Below are positions 10,520 through 13,190 of a DNA stretch of 51,701 nucleotides, one piece after another. Position 1 is the first letter of the stretch. Every line of letters begins with the position of its first letter. Both the position numbers and the translations under genes were made by a program. The DNA lies in IMG/VR virus record IMGVR_UViG_3300045988_094113, positions 1 through 51,701 of that record; one strand, written 5' to 3'. The stretch comes from a virus. The notes beneath the pieces are model-generated. The model ran no database searches. It was not told the DNA's origin and saw only the letters and a list, made by a program, of their open reading frames with translations.

Positions 10520-10548
10520 TTGACAAGCATAATAATATATTATATAAT
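10520..10548 (+). promoter_or_regulatory. Sigma-A-type promoter
   Basis: TTGACA-17-TATAAT. Confidence 0.7.
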
Positions 10549-10603
10549 ATAATCAAGTTAAGGGAATACAAAAAGTTGTTAAACAGAAAGGTTGGAAAAC
10601 AAA

Positions 10604-10810
10604 ATGAAGAGAACAATTATTACAGTAAAGGCAAACAGTTACAATGATTTTTGCTACAAATTAAGAAGTATGTACATTTGGAATGTAACAGTAAAGAGTG
10701 CAGGATGCAGATATAAATTATATGATAATATTTCTGGTAAGATTGTTGCATCTTATGATGAAAGAAAAGATCATGGTTTAGTTTATAATTATGGAAAAAG
10801 TTATAAATAA
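10604..10810 (+). CDS. Hypothetical early protein
   Basis: 68 aa; ATG after the shared leader aaaggttggaaaacaaa; track start is TTG in the leader. Confidence 0.55.
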   Translation: MKRTIITVKANSYNDFCYKLRSMYIWNVTVKSAGCRYKLYDNISGKIVASYDERKDHGLVYNYGKSYK

Positions 10811-10844
10811 AGGGTTGACAAAACAACCCTTTGTGATATATAAT
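10811..10844 (+). promoter_or_regulatory. Hairpin with embedded -35 box plus promoter
   Basis: agggttg-acaaaa-caaccct then ttt; TTGACA-18-TATAAT. Confidence 0.7.
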
Positions 10845-10896
10845 ATAGTTACAAGGTAAGGAAAACAAATAAAACAAAAGGTTGGAGGAAATGAAC

Positions 10897-11151
10897 ATGA
10901 AAACATTAGCATTGCAGAAAATTAAAGAAAGAAAAAACTTCTTAATTAAAAGAATTAAGCATAGAGCAATTCAATATAATAATGGAGAAATTTCTTTTGA
11001 AGAATTTCTTGATTATAAAAAGGATTATAAAACACAGTTCAGAGAATATGTGAGAGTCTTTTGGGATATTGAAGTTTTAACAGATGAAGAACGAGAGAAA
11101 ATTATAAATCAATTTAACTTTGATGTGTTAGAATTGAAAAAAGAAATATAA
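10897..11151 (+). CDS. Hypothetical early protein
   Basis: 84 aa; GGAGG 8 nt upstream. Confidence 0.55.
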   Translation: MKTLALQKIKERKNFLIKRIKHRAIQYNNGEISFEEFLDYKKDYKTQFREYVRVFWDIEVLTDEEREKIINQFNFDVLELKKEI

Positions 11152-11171
11152 AACAAATTTAAATTATATTA

Positions 11172-11200
11172 TTGACAAACATGTAAATGTAGTATATAAT
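11172..11200 (+). promoter_or_regulatory. Sigma-A-type promoter
   Basis: TTGACA-17-TATAAT. Confidence 0.7.
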
Positions 11201-11247
11201 ACAAGTATAAACAAAAGGAATACAAAAGTTTTGGAGGACAAAAAGTT

Positions 11248-11718
11248 ATGAAATATTTTAAGAACATTGAAACATTAGAGCAGTTAAGAAAAGAATACAA
11301 AAGACTTGTAAAAGAAAACCATCCAGATAACGGTGGCTCTGATGAAGCAATCAAAATTATCAATGCAGAATATGAGGAACTTTTCAAAGTCCTTAAAAAC
11401 AGCGATACAGCAGAAAACAAAAGTAAATATAACATGGCAGAAGATGAAATGTTAAGAAATGCTATTAACAGTATTATCAATTTGAATATTGATATAGAAA
11501 TTTGTGGTTCATGGATTTGGATAAGCGGAAATACATATGGATGCAAAACAGAATTGAAATCAAATGGTTTTAAATGGGCGAGTAAAAAGAAAATGTGGTA
11601 TTGGCATAATCCAGAAGAAGTGGTAAAAGGATATGGTAAAACAACAATGGCAGATATTAGAACAAAATATGGTTCACAGGTTGTAAAAGAATCAGCAAAA
11701 AGGTTTTGTATTGCATAA
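11248..11718 (+). CDS. J-domain (DnaJ-like) protein
   Basis: 156 aa; LEQLRKEYKRLVKENHPDNGGSDEAIKIINAEYEELF carries the HPD tripeptide. Confidence 0.75.
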   Translation: MKYFKNIETLEQLRKEYKRLVKENHPDNGGSDEAIKIINAEYEELFKVLKNSDTAENKSKYNMAEDEMLRNAINSIINLNIDIEICGSWIWISGNTYGCKTELKSNGFKWASKKKMWYWHNPEEVVKGYGKTTMADIRTKYGSQVVKESAKRFCIA

Positions 11719-11731
11719 AAATATCAAAAAA

Positions 11732-11764
11732 GGGGTTGACAAGTTCAACCCTTTGATATATAAT
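11732..11764 (+). promoter_or_regulatory. Hairpin with embedded -35 box plus promoter
   Basis: gggttga-caagt-tcaaccc then ttt; TTGACA-17-TATAAT. Confidence 0.7.
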
Positions 11765-11806
11765 TAAACCAAGCTAAAGAAAACAAAAGAAGTGGAGGAA
11801 AACAAA

Positions 11807-12037
11807 ATGACAAATAAAGAAACTTATGAATTTGGGAAAGTAATTATTGCAACAATTAAACACAATCCAGATAGTGCGGTTGTTACAAAAAGCGCATTAA
11901 GAGGTATGACAAGAAGAATGTATAAAGCAGAAATCATTACAAGTGTACAGAGAGATTGGTTAAATGGACAGATTTTAAAAACATTTGGAGTATGTAAATC
12001 AAATCATTATATTCTAAGGGAAAGAGTATACAAGTAA
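11807..12037 (+). CDS. Hypothetical early protein
   Basis: 76 aa; ATG after gtggaggaaaacaaa. Confidence 0.55.
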   Translation: MTNKETYEFGKVIIATIKHNPDSAVVTKSALRGMTRRMYKAEIITSVQRDWLNGQILKTFGVCKSNHYILRERVYK

Positions 12038-12055
12038 AAAATTTTCATTATATTA

Positions 12056-12084
12056 TTGACAAATAAAAATGTTAGTAGTATAAT
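12056..12084 (+). promoter_or_regulatory. Sigma-A-type promoter
   Basis: TTGACA-17-TATAAT. Confidence 0.7.
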
Positions 12085-12127
12085 GAAAATGTAAATAAAA
12101 GGTAAGCAAAAAAGAAAGGAAAACAAA

Positions 12128-12337
12128 ATGATGCAAAAATATAAAGAATTTGAAAATACACAAATGGTAGCTGTGAAAAGAAGTTTAATGACATACAGTG
12201 AAGCAATGGCGAATTGTTATGGATATTTAACAGCTATGAAAGATTTTGGTTTATTAAATGAAGAACAGAAAACACATGAGGTAAACAATATGTCTTATAG
12301 ATTTTTGAATATGCAGAAAACAAGTTTACATAAATAA
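12128..12337 (+). CDS. Hypothetical early protein
   Basis: 69 aa; shared leader. Confidence 0.55.
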   Translation: MMQKYKEFENTQMVAVKRSLMTYSEAMANCYGYLTAMKDFGLLNEEQKTHEVNNMSYRFLNMQKTSLHK

Positions 12338-12349
12338 GGAGAGTGAAAC

Positions 12350-12448
12350 ATGAAGTTAAAAAATTTATTGTTAGGAACAGCACCTATTTGGCTACCCATT
12401 CCAAGTATTATAGTCATAGGATATGTTTTAAAATTTTTAAATTGGTAG
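12350..12448 (+). CDS. 32-aa hydrophobic peptide (not in ORF track)
   Basis: AAGGAG RBS 8 nt upstream; MKLKNLLLGTAPIWLPIPSIIVIGYVLKFLNW. Confidence 0.4.
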   Translation: MKLKNLLLGTAPIWLPIPSIIVIGYVLKFLNW

Positions 12449-12449
12449 G

Positions 12450-12478
12450 TTGACAAAACTAAATATAAATGTTATAAT
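12450..12478 (+). promoter_or_regulatory. Sigma-A-type promoter
   Basis: TTGACA-17-TATAAT. Confidence 0.7.
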
Positions 12479-12509
12479 AAAGAAAAACAAAAGTAAGGAG
12501 AGCAAAAAA

Positions 12510-13190
12510 ATGAATAAAACAGAATTAGAAGTAATGAAGGTAGCAGAGTTAAAACAGATGTGCAGAGAAAGAAAGATGCCGCTTGAAAGCAAAGGACACA
12601 AATTTAATAAAGGAGAGCTTATTGACAGACTTATGTGGTATGAAGATGACAAAAAAGACATTGATAAGAAGATTGAAGAAAGTGCAGAACCATTAAAACA
12701 GGAAGTTGAAACAGAAGAAGAAAAATGGGATGCACCGGTATTACAGGAACATAAAGAAATTGAAAAGCCGAAGCAGGAAAAGAAGTTTGTACAGCATGAA
12801 GAAAACAGGCTCTACCCATTGCCATTTGCAAAAACGCTTGATGAAATCATTCAAAAGTATTCAAAGCCAAAACATGAAAGTGTTTTTGAAAATGTGTTAA
12901 AGGTTGGTTCATTTGTCGTGTTTATTCATTATGTTGAAGCAAAAGATGGAAATATATATAGAAAACTTAGAACAGCAAAAGTAACAGCCGTAAACAGAAA
13001 GAAAAAGCTTGTAAGAGCAGAAAGCTTTTTCGGTAATACATTTGAGTTGCCTTTTGAGGAGTTACTTTTTATTAGAGAAGTTGATGGTTTTTATCCAATG
13101 GACATTAACAAATATCTTAAAAATCAGAGAACAGAATATGGTAGAAAGGCTGTAAGTGAAAAGTATGAAAGTGAACATGAGGGAAATTAG
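12510..13190 (+). CDS. SAP/HeH-motif protein
   Basis: 226 aa from ATG after AAGGAG; N-terminal MKVAELKQMCRERKMPL...GELIDRL. Confidence 0.55.
   Translation: MNKTELEVMKVAELKQMCRERKMPLESKGHKFNKGELIDRLMWYEDDKKDIDKKIEESAEPLKQEVETEEEKWDAPVLQEHKEIEKPKQEKKFVQHEENRLYPLPFAKTLDEIIQKYSKPKHESVFENVLKVGSFVVFIHYVEAKDGNIYRKLRTAKVTAVNRKKKLVRAESFFGNTFELPFEELLFIREVDGFYPMDINKYLKNQRTEYGRKAVSEKYESEHEGN

What the first reader, a model, noticed from the sequence alone, without database searches (positions are those of the whole stretch)
10520..12510. The same promoter, -35-embedded hairpin and A-rich GGA leader recurs in front of at least 13 small genes
Six consecutive small genes between 10.5 and 12.5 kb each have their own near-perfect TTGACA-17-TATAAT promoter. 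More copies sit at 16058, 21630, 24799, 25200, 25820, 29617, 35722 and 35960.

Two further properties are not explained by simply having strong promoters:
- In five copies (10811, 11732, 16058, 21630, 25200) the -35 hexamer lies inside a 7-9 bp GC-rich hairpin, for example agggTTGACAaaacaaccct. In four of these the hairpin is followed by T3-4. The same 30 nt could therefore terminate the upstream gene and start the next one.
- The transcribed leaders share a T-poor consensus, roughly AAGGAAAACAAAAGGTTGGAGGAAAACAAAATG, with two or three GGA motifs. One is the Shine-Dalgarno sequence and another lies about 15-20 nt upstream.

The leader at 35762-35794, in the accessory island 23 kb away, is almost identical to the one at 10858-10890. 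This resembles the promoter-early stem-loop (PeSL) cassettes described in T4-type phages, which bracket shuffled ORFs. I am not aware of that architecture being described for this kind of phage. The paired GGA motifs could also be a binding site for a CsrA-like or phage RNA-binding protein, giving coordinated translational control.
Basis: partly seen in the sequence, partly recalled or inferred. Interest (0 to 1): 0.7.

Follow-up and report, generated by a model that had tools for sequence, protein, structure and literature searches.

The report
Phage early promoter-terminator cassettes shuffle genes
A gut Clostridia phage puts the same roughly 90-base promoter-plus-leader cassette, sometimes fused to a terminator hairpin, in front of 14 early genes, and related phages have swapped genes at these cassettes, as already described for T4-like phages.

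Summary
The window is a closed 51.6-kb genome of a siphovirus-type phage of gut Clostridia.

**The cassettes.** There are 14 intergenic cassettes between 10.5 and 36.0 kb, all on the + strand. Each has an AT-rich tract, a consensus or near-consensus sigma-A promoter, a 24-55 nt A-rich, T-poor leader with an AAACAAAAG core, a Shine-Dalgarno sequence (SD) and ATG. Exact TTGACA-N16-18-TATAAT occurs 13 times against 0.09 expected, and never on the - strand.

**The hairpins.** In five cassettes the -35 lies in the 5' arm of a hairpin of -11 to -17 kcal/mol. Four are followed by T3-4. Related genomes keep the hairpin through compensatory and G.U changes.

**Gene shuffling.** Close relatives differ by gene swaps, deletions and replacements. 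Three aligned junctions have their crossover inside a cassette. Homology breakpoints hit 10 of 11 cassette junctions against 9 of 22 other gene junctions.

**Interpretation.** The PeSL-like reading (promoter-early stem-loop: a composite promoter, terminator and recombination linker) is supported. The paired-GGA/CsrA idea is not: an upstream GGA occurs in 6 of 14 leaders, and chance gives 4.2 +/- 1.6.

**Distribution.** The -35-in-hairpin design is widespread in phages of Firmicutes. Published Kayvirus RNA-seq tables list the same DNA as both terminator and early promoter.

This is a new member of a known kind, of moderate interest.

The parts
10508..10606 (+). Cassette 1: AT-rich tract, TTGACA-17-TATAAT (10520-10548), 55-nt A-rich leader, SD GGTTGGA, ATG 10604 (68-aa ORFan). 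It is the first promoter of the non-structural half of the genome.
   Evidence: breakpoints at 10573 and 10604; hybrid junction with cassette 3 in L016
10803..10899 (+). Cassette 2: TTGACA-18-TATAAT (10815-10844), leader, GGAGGA, ATG 10897 (84-aa ORFan)
   Evidence: its gene lies after the DnaJ-like gene in all relatives, or elsewhere in L007/L008
10809..10832 (+). Hairpin AAAGGGTTG-acaaaa-CAACCCTTT. The -35 lies in its 5' arm. It starts at the stop codon of the upstream gene and is followed by GTGAT. dG is -14.4 kcal/mol.
   Evidence: orthologues show the series U-A / U.G / C-G (L001, L015, L018, L014)
11160..11250 (+). Cassette 3: TTGACA-17-TATAAT (11172-11200), leader with GGAATACAAAAG, GGAGGA, ATG 11248 (156-aa protein with a weak DnaJ-domain match). 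No hairpin.
   Evidence: crossover zones mapped in it
11724..11809 (+). Cassette 4: TTGACA-17-TATAAT (11736-11764), leader, GGAGGA, ATG 11807 (76-aa ORFan, absent from all relatives examined)
   Evidence: 12 HSP ends at 11787-11825
11730..11754 (+). Hairpin AAGGGGTTGA-caagt-TCAACCCTTT over the -35, with an A6 tract upstream and TTTG downstream. dG is -12.9 kcal/mol.
   Evidence: best match to covariance model R1 (65 bits)
12044..12130 (+). Cassette 5: TTGACA-17-TATAAT (12056-12084), leader, AAGGAAAAC, ATG 12128 (69-aa ORFan). No hairpin.
   Evidence: shares the 17-nt string ATTATATTATTGACAAA with cassette 3, which is the crossover zone in L001
12438..12512 (+). Cassette 6: TTGACA-17-TATAAT with TGn (12450-12478), 31-nt leader, AAGGAGAG, ATG 12510 (226 aa; first gene of the primase block)
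16050..16126 (+). Cassette 7: TTGACT-17-TATAAT with TGn (16062-16090), leader, ATG 16124 (DNA polymerase, 908 aa)
16058..16079 (+). Hairpin AGGCTTGAC-taat-GTCAAGCCT over the -35, followed by TTTTGTTA. dG is -16.8 kcal/mol. The simple scan calls it terminator-like.
   Evidence: retained before the polymerase gene in 11 of 14 distinct upstream regions, with three different stem sequences and one G.U
21624..21691 (+). Cassette 8: weak -35 TTGCAT, 17 bp, TGnTATAAT (21636-21664), 24-nt leader, GGAGA, ATG 21689 (130 aa)
21628..21651 (+). Hairpin AAGGGGTTGC-attt-GCAACCCTTT, followed by TATGTTAT. dG is -16.1 kcal/mol. Called terminator-like. Some relatives have GAGGTTGA/TCAACCTC at this site.
24787..24883 (+). 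Cassette 9: TTGACA-17-TAATAT with TGn (24799-24827), 53-nt leader, GGTTGG, ATG 24881 (104-aa ORFan; sits next to the lysis-side early region in L007-L009)
25192..25279 (+). Cassette 10: TTGACA-17-TATAAT (25204-25232), leader, GGAGGA, ATG 25277 (83-aa ORFan)
25200..25220 (+). Hairpin AGGGTTGA-caaac-TCAACCCT over the -35, followed by ATAGTA with no T run. dG is -11.3 kcal/mol.
25808..25895 (+). Cassette 11: TTGACA-17-TATTAT with TGn (25820-25848), leader GTTAAGGAAAAGCAAAAG, GGAGG, ATG 25893 (65-aa ORFan)
29605..29702 (+). Cassette 12: TTGACA-17-TAATAT with TGn (29617-29645), 54-nt leader, AAGGAGA, ATG 29700 (249 aa, weak endonuclease VII-like match)
35710..35794 (+). Cassette 13: TTGACT-16-TATAAT with TGn (35722-35749), leader GTTAAGGAAAACAAAAGGTTGGAGGAAAACAAA, ATG 35792 (53-aa ORFan). 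A separate terminator hairpin lies upstream at 35659-35682.
   Evidence: 97.5% identical to L216 up to 35775, then unrelated
35948..36042 (+). Cassette 14: TTGACA-17-TATTAT with TGn (35960-35988), 51-nt leader, AAGGAGA, ATG 36040 (50-aa ORFan)

Best explanation
These are autonomous early-expression cassettes read by the host's primary-sigma RNA polymerase.

**Layout of each 70-100 bp unit.**
- An AT-rich tract, with an A run in front of the hairpin types.
- A consensus -35, a 17-bp spacer and a -10.
- A predicted start about 7 nt downstream of the -10.
- A 24-55 nt leader made almost entirely of A and G with a few C. Its core is AAACAAAAG and it cannot fold.
- A strong SD, an A-rich spacer and ATG.

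**Step 1 (inferred from sequence).** Each early gene or short gene block is transcribed and translated at a high level, independently of its neighbours.

**Step 2 (inferred; supported by conservation here and by RNA-seq in Kayvirus).**
- In 5 of 14 cassettes the -35 is the 5' arm of a GC-rich hairpin. The hairpin's 3' arm and U-rich tail fill the spacer.
- In RNA made from upstream, this hairpin acts as an intrinsic terminator or attenuator. The upstream unit ends within the next promoter, which insulates the units from each other.

**Step 3 (shown by comparative genomics).**
- The cassettes are conserved within and between related genomes, while the ORFs between them are not.
- They therefore act as linker homology for recombination. 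Genes are deleted, replaced, re-ordered and moved between cassette-rich regions as promoter-gene modules.
- Crossovers map either in the AT-rich/-35 part or in the leader core between the -10 and the SD.
- The phage's own UvsX-like recombinase, Cas4-like exonuclease and resolvases are the likely machinery (inferred).

In function this is the PeSL type of composite promoter, terminator and linker cassette, here in a phage of Firmicutes.
For: **Promoters.**
- 13 exact sites against 0.09 expected, all on the + strand.
- 14 intergenic sites lie 24-55 nt before start codons, all in the non-structural half of the genome.
- The same pattern holds in L001-L020 (3-7.6 per 10 kb on +, about 0 on -).
- It also holds in the cultured relative CS266P3 (20 on +, 0 on -).

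**Leaders.**
- Composition and similarity exceed the controls.
- They are less structured than other translation start regions: MFE -1.49 against -2.92 kcal/mol, P = 0.006.

**Hairpins.**
- Enriched about 9-fold over shuffles.
- dG equals that of stand-alone terminators.
- Two of the five pass the terminator scan.
- Compensatory changes at four stem positions, with G.U intermediates: -35 position 1 T-A/T.G/C-G; up-1 G-C/C-G/A-T; up-3 G-C/G.T/A-T; -35 position 4 A-T/C-G.
- Formal count: 98.9% of cells paired, against 21-62% when partners are slid. Covariation score 0.132 against 0.086 +/- 0.010, reached by 0 of 500 shuffles.
- Kept before the polymerase gene with three different stems.

**Experimental analogue.** In Kayvirus vB_SauM-515A1, Table S3 terminators t69, t194, t204, t198, t165, t174, t129, t112, t60 and t48 are the same DNA as Table S2 early promoters p68, p195, p205, p199, p166, p175, p130, p113, p59 and p47_1.

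**Recombination.**
- Three aligned hybrid junctions have the crossover in shared cassette sequence.
- Gene order and location differ between genomes.
- 13 of 54 breakpoint clusters, and 44 of 145 HSP ends, fall in the 4.8% of sequence covered by cassettes.
- 10 of 11 cassette junctions are hit against 9 of 22 other junctions, Fisher P = 0.007.
- Gene families preceded by cassettes have more diverse upstream neighbours, P = 0.0016.
- Cassette pairs share longer exact strings: mean 10.8 nt, maximum 21, against 7.5 in controls.
- Recombination genes are present.
Against: - There are no transcript data for this phage, so start sites, early timing and termination are all inferred.
- Only 5 of 14 cassettes have the hairpin. 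Their T runs are short (3-4), and 25200 has none.
- In the wide IMG/VR set about half of such hairpins have 0-1 T after the stem. Termination therefore cannot be the whole reason the hairpin is kept.
- Formal covariation is thin, because the 5' arm is constrained by the -35. One pair shows double changes in the model-based alignment.
- The per-nucleotide density of breakpoints in cassette junctions is only 1.4 times that in other gene junctions. Part of the association is simply 'breakpoints survive at gene boundaries'.
- Homology between different cassettes within one genome is short (11-21 nt exact).
- A-rich, T-poor leaders are generic to these phages, so leader similarity is partly convergent.
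- My gene calls are crude.
Confidence: 0.7

Rival explanations
1. These are ordinary strong early promoters with generic A-rich leaders, and nothing more. The cassettes resemble each other only because consensus promoters, unstructured purine-rich leaders and strong SDs are each selected independently. Breakpoints fall there only because recombinants that cut genes are lost. The hairpins are ordinary terminators that happen to abut promoters.
For: - Unrelated phages have leaders of the same composition: A 56%, T 16%, C 8%.
- With the distal leader shuffled, similarity stays high: 20.3 against the observed 25.0.
- Breakpoint density per nucleotide is only 1.4-fold above other gene junctions, and 41 of 54 breakpoint clusters lie outside cassettes.
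Against: - Three junctions have crossovers located exactly inside shared cassette strings: GGAATACAAAAG, ATTATATTATTGACAAA and GTTAAGGAAAACAAAA.
- AACAAAAG occurs in 9 of 14 leaders against 0.41 expected from composition.
- The hairpin is placed precisely on the -35 in many lineages, with a 17-bp spacer preserved in 103 of 115 cases (the spacer lengths printed there are one too high).
- Small genes relocate together with their promoters.
Confidence: 0.18
2. The hairpin is an RNA element, but not mainly a terminator. It forms the protected 3' end of the upstream message after processing or read-through (a 3'-exonuclease barrier), or it is a factor-dependent (NusA/NusG) pause or attenuation site. 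It tunes expression rather than stopping transcription.
For: - Window 25200 and 60 of 125 hairpins in the wide set have 0-1 T after the stem, yet keep the stem.
- G.U intermediates show selection at the RNA level.
- The Listeria phage CKA15 paper reports efficient termination sites in the long terminal repeat (LTR) that ARNold does not predict. The LTR of a related Listeria phage carries the same hairpin-promoter without a T run.
Against: - Four of the five window hairpins do have T3-4 followed by a U-rich -10 region, and two pass a terminator scan.
- The Kayvirus examples with T5-7 are scored as terminators by RNA-seq.
- No data here distinguish between the two roles.
Confidence: 0.15
3. The inverted repeat over the -35 is a DNA operator for a dimeric phage or host repressor that shuts these promoters off. 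Alternatively, it is a DNA signal for a recombinase.
For: - It overlaps the -35, which is a classic operator position.
- The GGGG..CCCC stem motif recurs very widely. Arbiol et al. speculated about a DNA-binding protein for PeSL stems.
Against: - Loop length varies from 4 to 8 nt, so the two half-sites shift relative to each other.
- The stems differ within one genome: AGGCTTGAC, GGGTTGC and GGGTTGA.
- G.T positions are tolerated, which fits RNA pairing but not a protein half-site or a DNA cruciform.
- 9 of 14 cassettes lack the repeat.
Confidence: 0.05
4. Paired GGA motifs in the leader are a binding site for CsrA or a phage RNA-binding protein, giving coordinated translational control. A variant of this idea is that the 5'-proximal AAGGA acts as a Stab-SD-type 5' stabiliser that holds a ribosome near the 5' end.
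For: - Six leaders carry (G)TTAAGGRAAA 8-12 nt after the -10 plus the SD about 15-20 nt downstream.
- From my own knowledge: polypurine 5' stabilisers are known for B. subtilis phage SP82 early RNA and for cryIIIA. This was not checked in the paper library.
Against: - An upstream GGA occurs in 6 of 14 leaders against 4.2 +/- 1.6 in shuffles, P = 0.2.
- Orthologous leaders in relatives read GTTAAAGATAG or GTTAAGAGAAA, so the GGA is lost.
- CsrA sites usually present GGA in a hairpin loop (my knowledge). These leaders have almost no predicted structure.
Confidence: 0.05

Closest known systems
PeSL (promoter-early stem-loop) cassettes of T4-like myoviruses (Arbiol et al. 2010, PMC2839356; Comeau et al. 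2014, PMC4122927)
   Same: - An AT-rich upstream tract.
- A near-perfect TTGACA-N17-TATAAT promoter.
- A G-run/C-run stem-loop placed within or next to the promoter.
- SD and ATG at the 3' end.
- Clustering between ORFans in variable regions.
- Indels, replacements and displacements in close relatives with crossovers between the -10 and the SD/ATG, or in the AT-rich part.
- A phage with its own UvsX-type recombination system.

Sources: for the papers; for this phage.
   Different: - The host is a Firmicute and the phage is a 52-kb siphovirus type, not a T4-like myovirus.
- The stem-loop sits on the -35 (5' arm). In RB49/phi1 it mostly lies between the -35 and -10 or over the -10. In PST/nt-1 it lies just upstream.
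- Only 5 of 14 cassettes carry a stem-loop.
- The leader has its own conserved core (AAACAAAAG), which serves as a crossover zone.
- Promoter and terminator activity and mini-circles were shown experimentally for PeSLs, but not here.
Overlapping early promoter and terminator elements in Staphylococcus Kayvirus vB_SauM-515A1 (Kornienko et al. 2020, PMC7698491, Tables S2 and S3). The same design is present in Enterococcus Efquatrovirus and Listeria Pecentumvirus genomes.
   Same: - A TTGACA box inside a GC-rich hairpin, with the T tract in the 17-bp spacer, then the -10.
- The elements lie in front of small early genes.
- RNA-seq down-steps and up-steps coincide, for example t69/p68, t194/p195 and t204/p205.
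- LM99, S25-3 and LP-066 carry GGGGTTGAC...CAACCCC types like those of the window.
   Different: - In Kayvirus the -35 is often the loop or the 3' arm, and the T tracts are longer (5-7).
- The paper lists the two feature types in separate tables and does not discuss the overlap or any role in gene shuffling.
- These phages are unrelated to the window apart from this roughly 100-nt resemblance.
Host-takeover module of Bacillus phage SPO1, and the long-terminal-repeat early genes of Herelleviridae
   Same: Many small early genes, each with its own strong sigma-A promoter and strong ribosome-binding site. Expression is maximal in the first minutes of infection. For SPO1 this rests on my own knowledge of Stewart et al. 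1998. For the Listeria phage CKA15 LTR genes and their sigma-A-like promoters with AT-rich upstream elements.
   Different: I know of no claim that the SPO1 regulatory sites act as recombination linkers. The SPO1 paper was not available in the library to check.
Canonical intrinsic (Rho-independent) terminators
   Same: A GC-rich stem of 7-11 bp, a loop of 4-6 nt and dG of -11 to -17 kcal/mol, placed 0-15 nt after a stop codon in four of the five cases (78 nt at 21628), followed by T3-4 in four of five.
   Different: The U tract is short and interrupted, and is absent at 25200. The element is at the same time a promoter.

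Membership tests
PeSL-type composite promoter/terminator/linker cassette | Near-consensus primary-sigma promoter (TTGACA-N17-TATAAT) | tested here: met
   13 exact sites against 0.09 expected. 14 intergenic cassettes with 0-2 mismatches, apart from the -35 at 21636.
PeSL-type composite promoter/terminator/linker cassette | Stable G/C-rich stem-loop within or adjoining the promoter | tested here: inconclusive
   Present in 5 of 14 cassettes, with dG of -11 to -17 kcal/mol and 9-fold enrichment over shuffles. 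Absent from the other 9. One of those (35722) has a separate terminator 40 nt upstream.
PeSL-type composite promoter/terminator/linker cassette | The stem-loop terminates or attenuates upstream transcription | not testable with these tools
   Only indirect evidence: T3-4 in four of five, compensatory and G.U changes, and Kayvirus RNA-seq tables.
PeSL-type composite promoter/terminator/linker cassette | AT-rich tract upstream of the -35, with SD and start codon at the 3' end | tested here: met
   The 25 nt upstream of the -35 are 72-96% A+T. Every cassette ends in SD plus ATG.
PeSL-type composite promoter/terminator/linker cassette | Concentrated between small non-essential genes or ORFans in variable regions | tested here: met
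   All 14 lie between 10.5 and 36.0 kb. Most downstream genes have no PHROG or Pfam match. Their content and order vary among 20 relatives.
PeSL-type composite promoter/terminator/linker cassette | Differences between close relatives are bounded by the cassettes, with crossovers inside them | tested here: met
   Hybrid junctions A2, A6 and A7. 10 of 11 cassette junctions hit against 9 of 22 others, P = 0.007. The per-nucleotide excess over other junctions is only 1.4-fold.
PeSL-type composite promoter/terminator/linker cassette | Excision of cassette-flanked ORFs as mini-circles | not testable with these tools
   Needs inverse PCR on infected cells or virion DNA.
PeSL-type composite promoter/terminator/linker cassette | Carried by a T4-like myovirus (the lineage in which PeSLs were defined) | tested here: not met
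   Siphovirus-type tail genes (tape measure, Dit), 51.6-kb genome, closest cultured relative Clostridium phage CS266P3. This is a lineage criterion, not a functional one.
Intrinsic terminator | GC-rich hairpin directly followed by a U-rich tract | tested here: inconclusive
   16058 and 21628 pass the scan (at least 5 T in 8). 10809 and 11730 have T3. 25200 has none.
CsrA-type binding site | Two or more GGA motifs, one over the SD, more frequent than chance and typically in hairpin loops | tested here: not met
   An upstream GGA occurs in 6 of 14 leaders against 4.2 +/- 1.6 in shuffles. It is lost in orthologues. The leaders are nearly structure-free.
Stab-SD / polypurine 5' mRNA stabiliser | SD-like sequence close to the 5' end, upstream of the real ribosome-binding site | tested here: inconclusive
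   AAGGA or GGGAA lies 8-12 nt after the -10 in 6 of 14 leaders. This is not above chance. mRNA half-lives cannot be tested here.

The most novel reading that the evidence does not exclude
The -35-embedded hairpin is not a quirk of this clade. It would be a selectively maintained, two-in-one element shared by many unrelated phages of Firmicutes (gut Clostridia siphoviruses, Efquatrovirus, Herelleviridae) and some jumbo phages. About half of the copies lack a U tract, so its conserved role would go beyond classical termination. Possible roles are a factor-assisted stop that releases polymerase directly onto the next promoter, or a 3'-end barrier. Together with the leader core, it would make a portable linker through which early genes are exchanged even between distantly related phages.
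Probability: 0.3. Interest if true: 0.65.

Novelty: new member of a known kind. Interest (0 to 1): 0.45.

Why it matters
It extends the PeSL idea from T4-like phages of Gram-negative hosts to a small siphovirus-type phage of gut Clostridia. In that idea, regulatory cassettes both insulate early genes and serve as the seams along which phage genomes are re-assorted.

The fused terminator and promoter, with the -35 inside the hairpin, turns out to be common in phages of Firmicutes.

**Practical uses.**
- Early genes in uncultured gut phage genomes can be recognised simply by scanning for the cassette.
- The boundaries of swappable modules can be predicted, which helps with phage engineering.
- The element is a compact natural terminator-promoter part for low-GC Gram-positive hosts.

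A cultured relative (CS266P1-4) makes the predictions testable.

Tried and rejected
1. **K-mer over-representation against a Markov background.** It did not single out the cassette motifs, because A-rich words are common genome-wide. I replaced it with leader-specific shuffles.
2. **MAFFT alignment of 33 hairpin-promoters (A1).** It put the 3' arms out of register because the loops differ in length. Pair counts were instead made by anchoring on the TTG of the -35 and with a covariance model. My anchoring script mis-folded two sequences (L011_9931 and L019_4291).
3. **Rfam at gathering threshold.** It found only two tRNAs and nothing in the cassettes.
4. **Methyltransferase 34832-35638 as an anchor for the 35-kb region.** It returned only unrelated contigs, so the gene is an island private to this genome. 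The large terminase was used as the anchor instead.
5. **CsrA / paired GGA.** Rejected on the counts.
6. **Repressor operator.** Rejected because of variable loop length and G.T pairs.
7. **Literature searches.** I looked for an explicit description of a -35 inside a terminator hairpin in phages of Gram-positive hosts and found none. One query failed on syntax. The library lacks most subscription papers, so this is weak evidence of absence.
8. **Listeria phage CKA15.** I looked for termination-site coordinates to test hairpins without a U tract. None are held in the text or supplement.
9. **First promoter scan call.** It failed on a range limit and was repeated.

Full report
**What the window is.**
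- The first and last 99 nt are identical, so this is a closed genome of 51,602 bp. It has 31% G+C, and all long ORFs are on the + strand.
- PHROG matches give the gene map:
  - tail genes (tape measure, Dit) at 0.7-6 kb;
  - primase (13673), DNA polymerase (16124), a UvsX-like recombinase (19403), a Cas4-like exonuclease (20496), resolvases and RNase H at 13-31 kb;
  - a methyltransferase island at 34-35.6 kb;
  - large terminase, endolysin and portal from 37.7 kb.
- No integrase was seen among the proteins I scanned.
- The nearest cultured relatives are Clostridium phages CS266P1-4, at about 67% DNA identity. IMG/VR holds more than 55 related contigs.

- TTGACA-N16-18-TATAAT occurs 13 times against 0.09 expected, and never on the - strand. 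With one mismatch the counts are 19 and 0.
- Fourteen sites are intergenic and lie 24-55 nt before a start codon. They are at 10520, 10815, 11172, 11736, 12056, 12450, 16062, 21636, 24799, 25204, 25820, 29617, 35722 and 35960.
- All 14 lie in the non-structural half of the genome.
  - 21636 has a poor -35 (TTGCAT) with an extended -10.
  - 24799 and 29617 use TAATAT.
  - One downstream gene is the 908-aa polymerase.
- Most of the other downstream genes are ORFans with no PHROG or Pfam match.

**Hairpins.**
- Five cassettes carry a perfect 7-9 bp (up to 11 bp with A-U extensions) GC-rich stem whose 5' arm contains TTG(AC) of the -35.
- Their dG is -11.3 to -16.8 kcal/mol, the same range as the genome's stand-alone terminators at 7710, 30612, 32657, 35659 and 43798.
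- Four are followed by T3-4 and the U-rich -10 region. 25200 is not. The simple scan calls 16058 and 21628 terminator-like.
- Across 174 promoters in the window and 20 related loci, 23% have a stem of 6 bp or more over the -35, against 2.7% after shuffling the flanks.
- Thirty-three distinct hairpin-promoters show compensation at four stem positions:
  - T-A / T.G / C-G at the first -35 base. The C-G case (L014) sacrifices the -35 consensus (CTGACA) to keep the pair.
  - G-C / C-G / A-T one base upstream of the -35.
  - G-C / G.T / A-T three bases upstream.
  - A-T / C-G at the fourth -35 base.
- Tolerance of G.T, and loops of 4-8 nt, point to an RNA hairpin rather than a protein operator.
- A covariance model found 51 copies at E < 0.5 in the early-region loci, 48 of them on the + strand. 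At E <= 0.01 it found none in 47 terminase-flank loci.
- On the model's alignment:
  - 98.9% of cells pair, against 21-62% when partners are slid.
  - The covariation score is 0.132 against 0.086 +/- 0.010.
  - Only one pair shows double changes, so the formal covariation is modest.
- Upstream of the polymerase gene, the hairpin-promoter is present in 11 of 14 distinct upstream regions, with three different stem sequences.

**Leaders.**
- They are A 59%, T 15% and C 7%.
- They are predicted to be less structured than other start regions.
- Their similarity exceeds that of other upstream regions (25.0 against 14.1 +/- 0.6) and of composition-preserving shuffles (20.3 +/- 0.5).
- The shared motif is AAACAAA(AG), often on both sides of the SD. 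AACAAAAG occurs in 9 of 14 leaders against 0.41 expected.
- An upstream GGA is not enriched: 6 of 14 against 4.2 +/- 1.6. It is lost in orthologous leaders. The CsrA idea therefore has no support from sequence.

**Comparative genomics.**
- Relatives at 69-97% polymerase identity have the same promoter density and strand bias. So does CS266P3.
- Gene content and order around the cassettes differ:
  - Every relative that has both genes places the DnaJ-like gene before the homologue of 10897. The window has the reverse order.
  - 11807 is unique to the window.
  - Homologues of 10897, 24881, 25277, 12128 and 26096 sit in different cassette-rich regions in different genomes.
- Three junctions were aligned:
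  - L016 equals the window's cassette 1 up to TATAATATAATCA, and cassette 3 from AAGGGAATACAAAAG onward.
  - L001 switches from the window's cassette-3 context to cassette 5 within ATTATATTATTGACAAA.
  - L216 is 97.5% identical to the window from the 35659 terminator through promoter 35722 and the leader up to AACAAAA, then unrelated until about 36236.
- Of 54 breakpoint clusters in 19.7 kb, 13 lie in the 4.8% of sequence covered by cassettes, as do 44 of 145 HSP ends.
- 10 of 11 cassette junctions are hit against 9 of 22 other gene junctions, P = 0.007. The per-nucleotide density is only 1.4-fold higher.
- Gene families preceded by cassettes have more varied upstream neighbours, P = 0.0016.

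**The design is widespread.**
- Features the pattern did not specify confirm that these are real promoters:
  - 115 of 125 read TTGACA.
  - 103 of those 115 have a 17-bp spacer. The values printed are one too high.
  - 89 have TGn.
  - 97 are followed by SD plus a start codon.
  - The leaders are again A-rich and T-poor.
- Only 52 of 125 have T3 or more after the stem.
- blastn of the 11736 element finds Enterococcus (116 records), Listeria (54), Staphylococcus and Bacillus phages, and a few jumbo phages of Gram-negative hosts.
- The sequences were checked directly in LM99, S25-3 and LP-066.
- In Kayvirus vB_SauM-515A1, at least ten RNA-seq-defined terminators are the same DNA as early promoters that start transcription units. 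The paper does not comment on this.

**Interpretation.**
- The best reading is a PeSL-type cassette: an autonomous early promoter plus translation leader, in a third of cases fused to a terminator or attenuator for the upstream unit, which also acts as linker homology for modular exchange.
- The PeSL papers describe the same parts, and crossovers in the same places: between the -10 and the SD/ATG, and in the AT-rich part.
- PeSLs have been named only in T4-like myoviruses in the library I could search.
- The main open point is what the hairpin does when no U tract follows it.

**Verdict.** The feature is real, and it is explained as a new member of a known kind. Interest is moderate, raised somewhat by the breadth of the -35-in-hairpin design and by having a cultured relative in which to test it.

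Noticed in passing
window 1-99 and 51603-51701: The two ends are identical over exactly 99 nt. The window is therefore a circularly closed assembly with a unit length of 51,602 bp.
   Followed up: yes
window 37071-37143 and 37229-37302: Two tRNA genes, Gln(TTG) and Met(CAT), lie between the accessory region and the terminase gene.
   Followed up: partly
window 32461-32690, and 30450-30672: A promoter-like site at 32461 is followed by 229 nt without an ORF, ending in a strong terminator (32657-32680, then TGTTTT). This is a candidate small RNA. A second non-coding stretch ends in the terminator at 30612-30652. Neither has an Rfam match.
   Followed up: no
window 17323/17324 (in the DNA polymerase gene); L014, L015, L016: Three relatives carry insertions of 446, 770 and 262 nt at exactly this point of the polymerase gene. 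This is probably an intron, intein or homing-endonuclease site. L004, L010 and L014 also have an extra gene between the hairpin promoter and the polymerase gene.
   Followed up: no
window 37748-39515: The large-terminase ORF (357 aa) is followed by an HNH endonuclease gene. CS266P3 annotates I-HmuI-type endonucleases in the same place. The terminase region looks invaded or split by homing elements.
   Followed up: no
window 3267, 5954, 14683, 28803, 46880: Perfect or near-perfect consensus promoters lie inside the 3' ends of coding regions and lack the A-rich leader. Those at 3267, 14683 and 46880 are conserved in CS266P3 (13866, 21626, 5393), although the genomes are only about 67% identical. 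They are probably real internal promoters.
   Followed up: partly
window 34323-35638: A ParB-like nuclease and DNA methyltransferase pair is absent from all close relatives. Its nearest homologues are in unrelated viral contigs. It is a privately acquired island, ending at terminator 35659 and cassette 35722.
   Followed up: partly
window 10399-10502: An imperfect 39-nt inverted repeat (72% complementary, 26 nt between the arms) lies in the very AT-rich gap just before the first early promoter. It also aligns in reverse with relatives. Its function is unknown.
   Followed up: no
window 12351-12449 and 21553-21618: Two mini-ORFs encode hydrophobic peptides of 32 and 21 aa. The first has its own SD. 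A standard ORF list would miss them.
   Followed up: no
L118 (IMG/VR contig), 196-5250: An unrelated viral contig carries seven nearly identical GGGGTTGACAAACCTCAACCCC hairpin-promoters within 5.2 kb. In this and other large contigs, some are followed by tRNA-like sequence rather than by a protein-coding gene.
   Followed up: no
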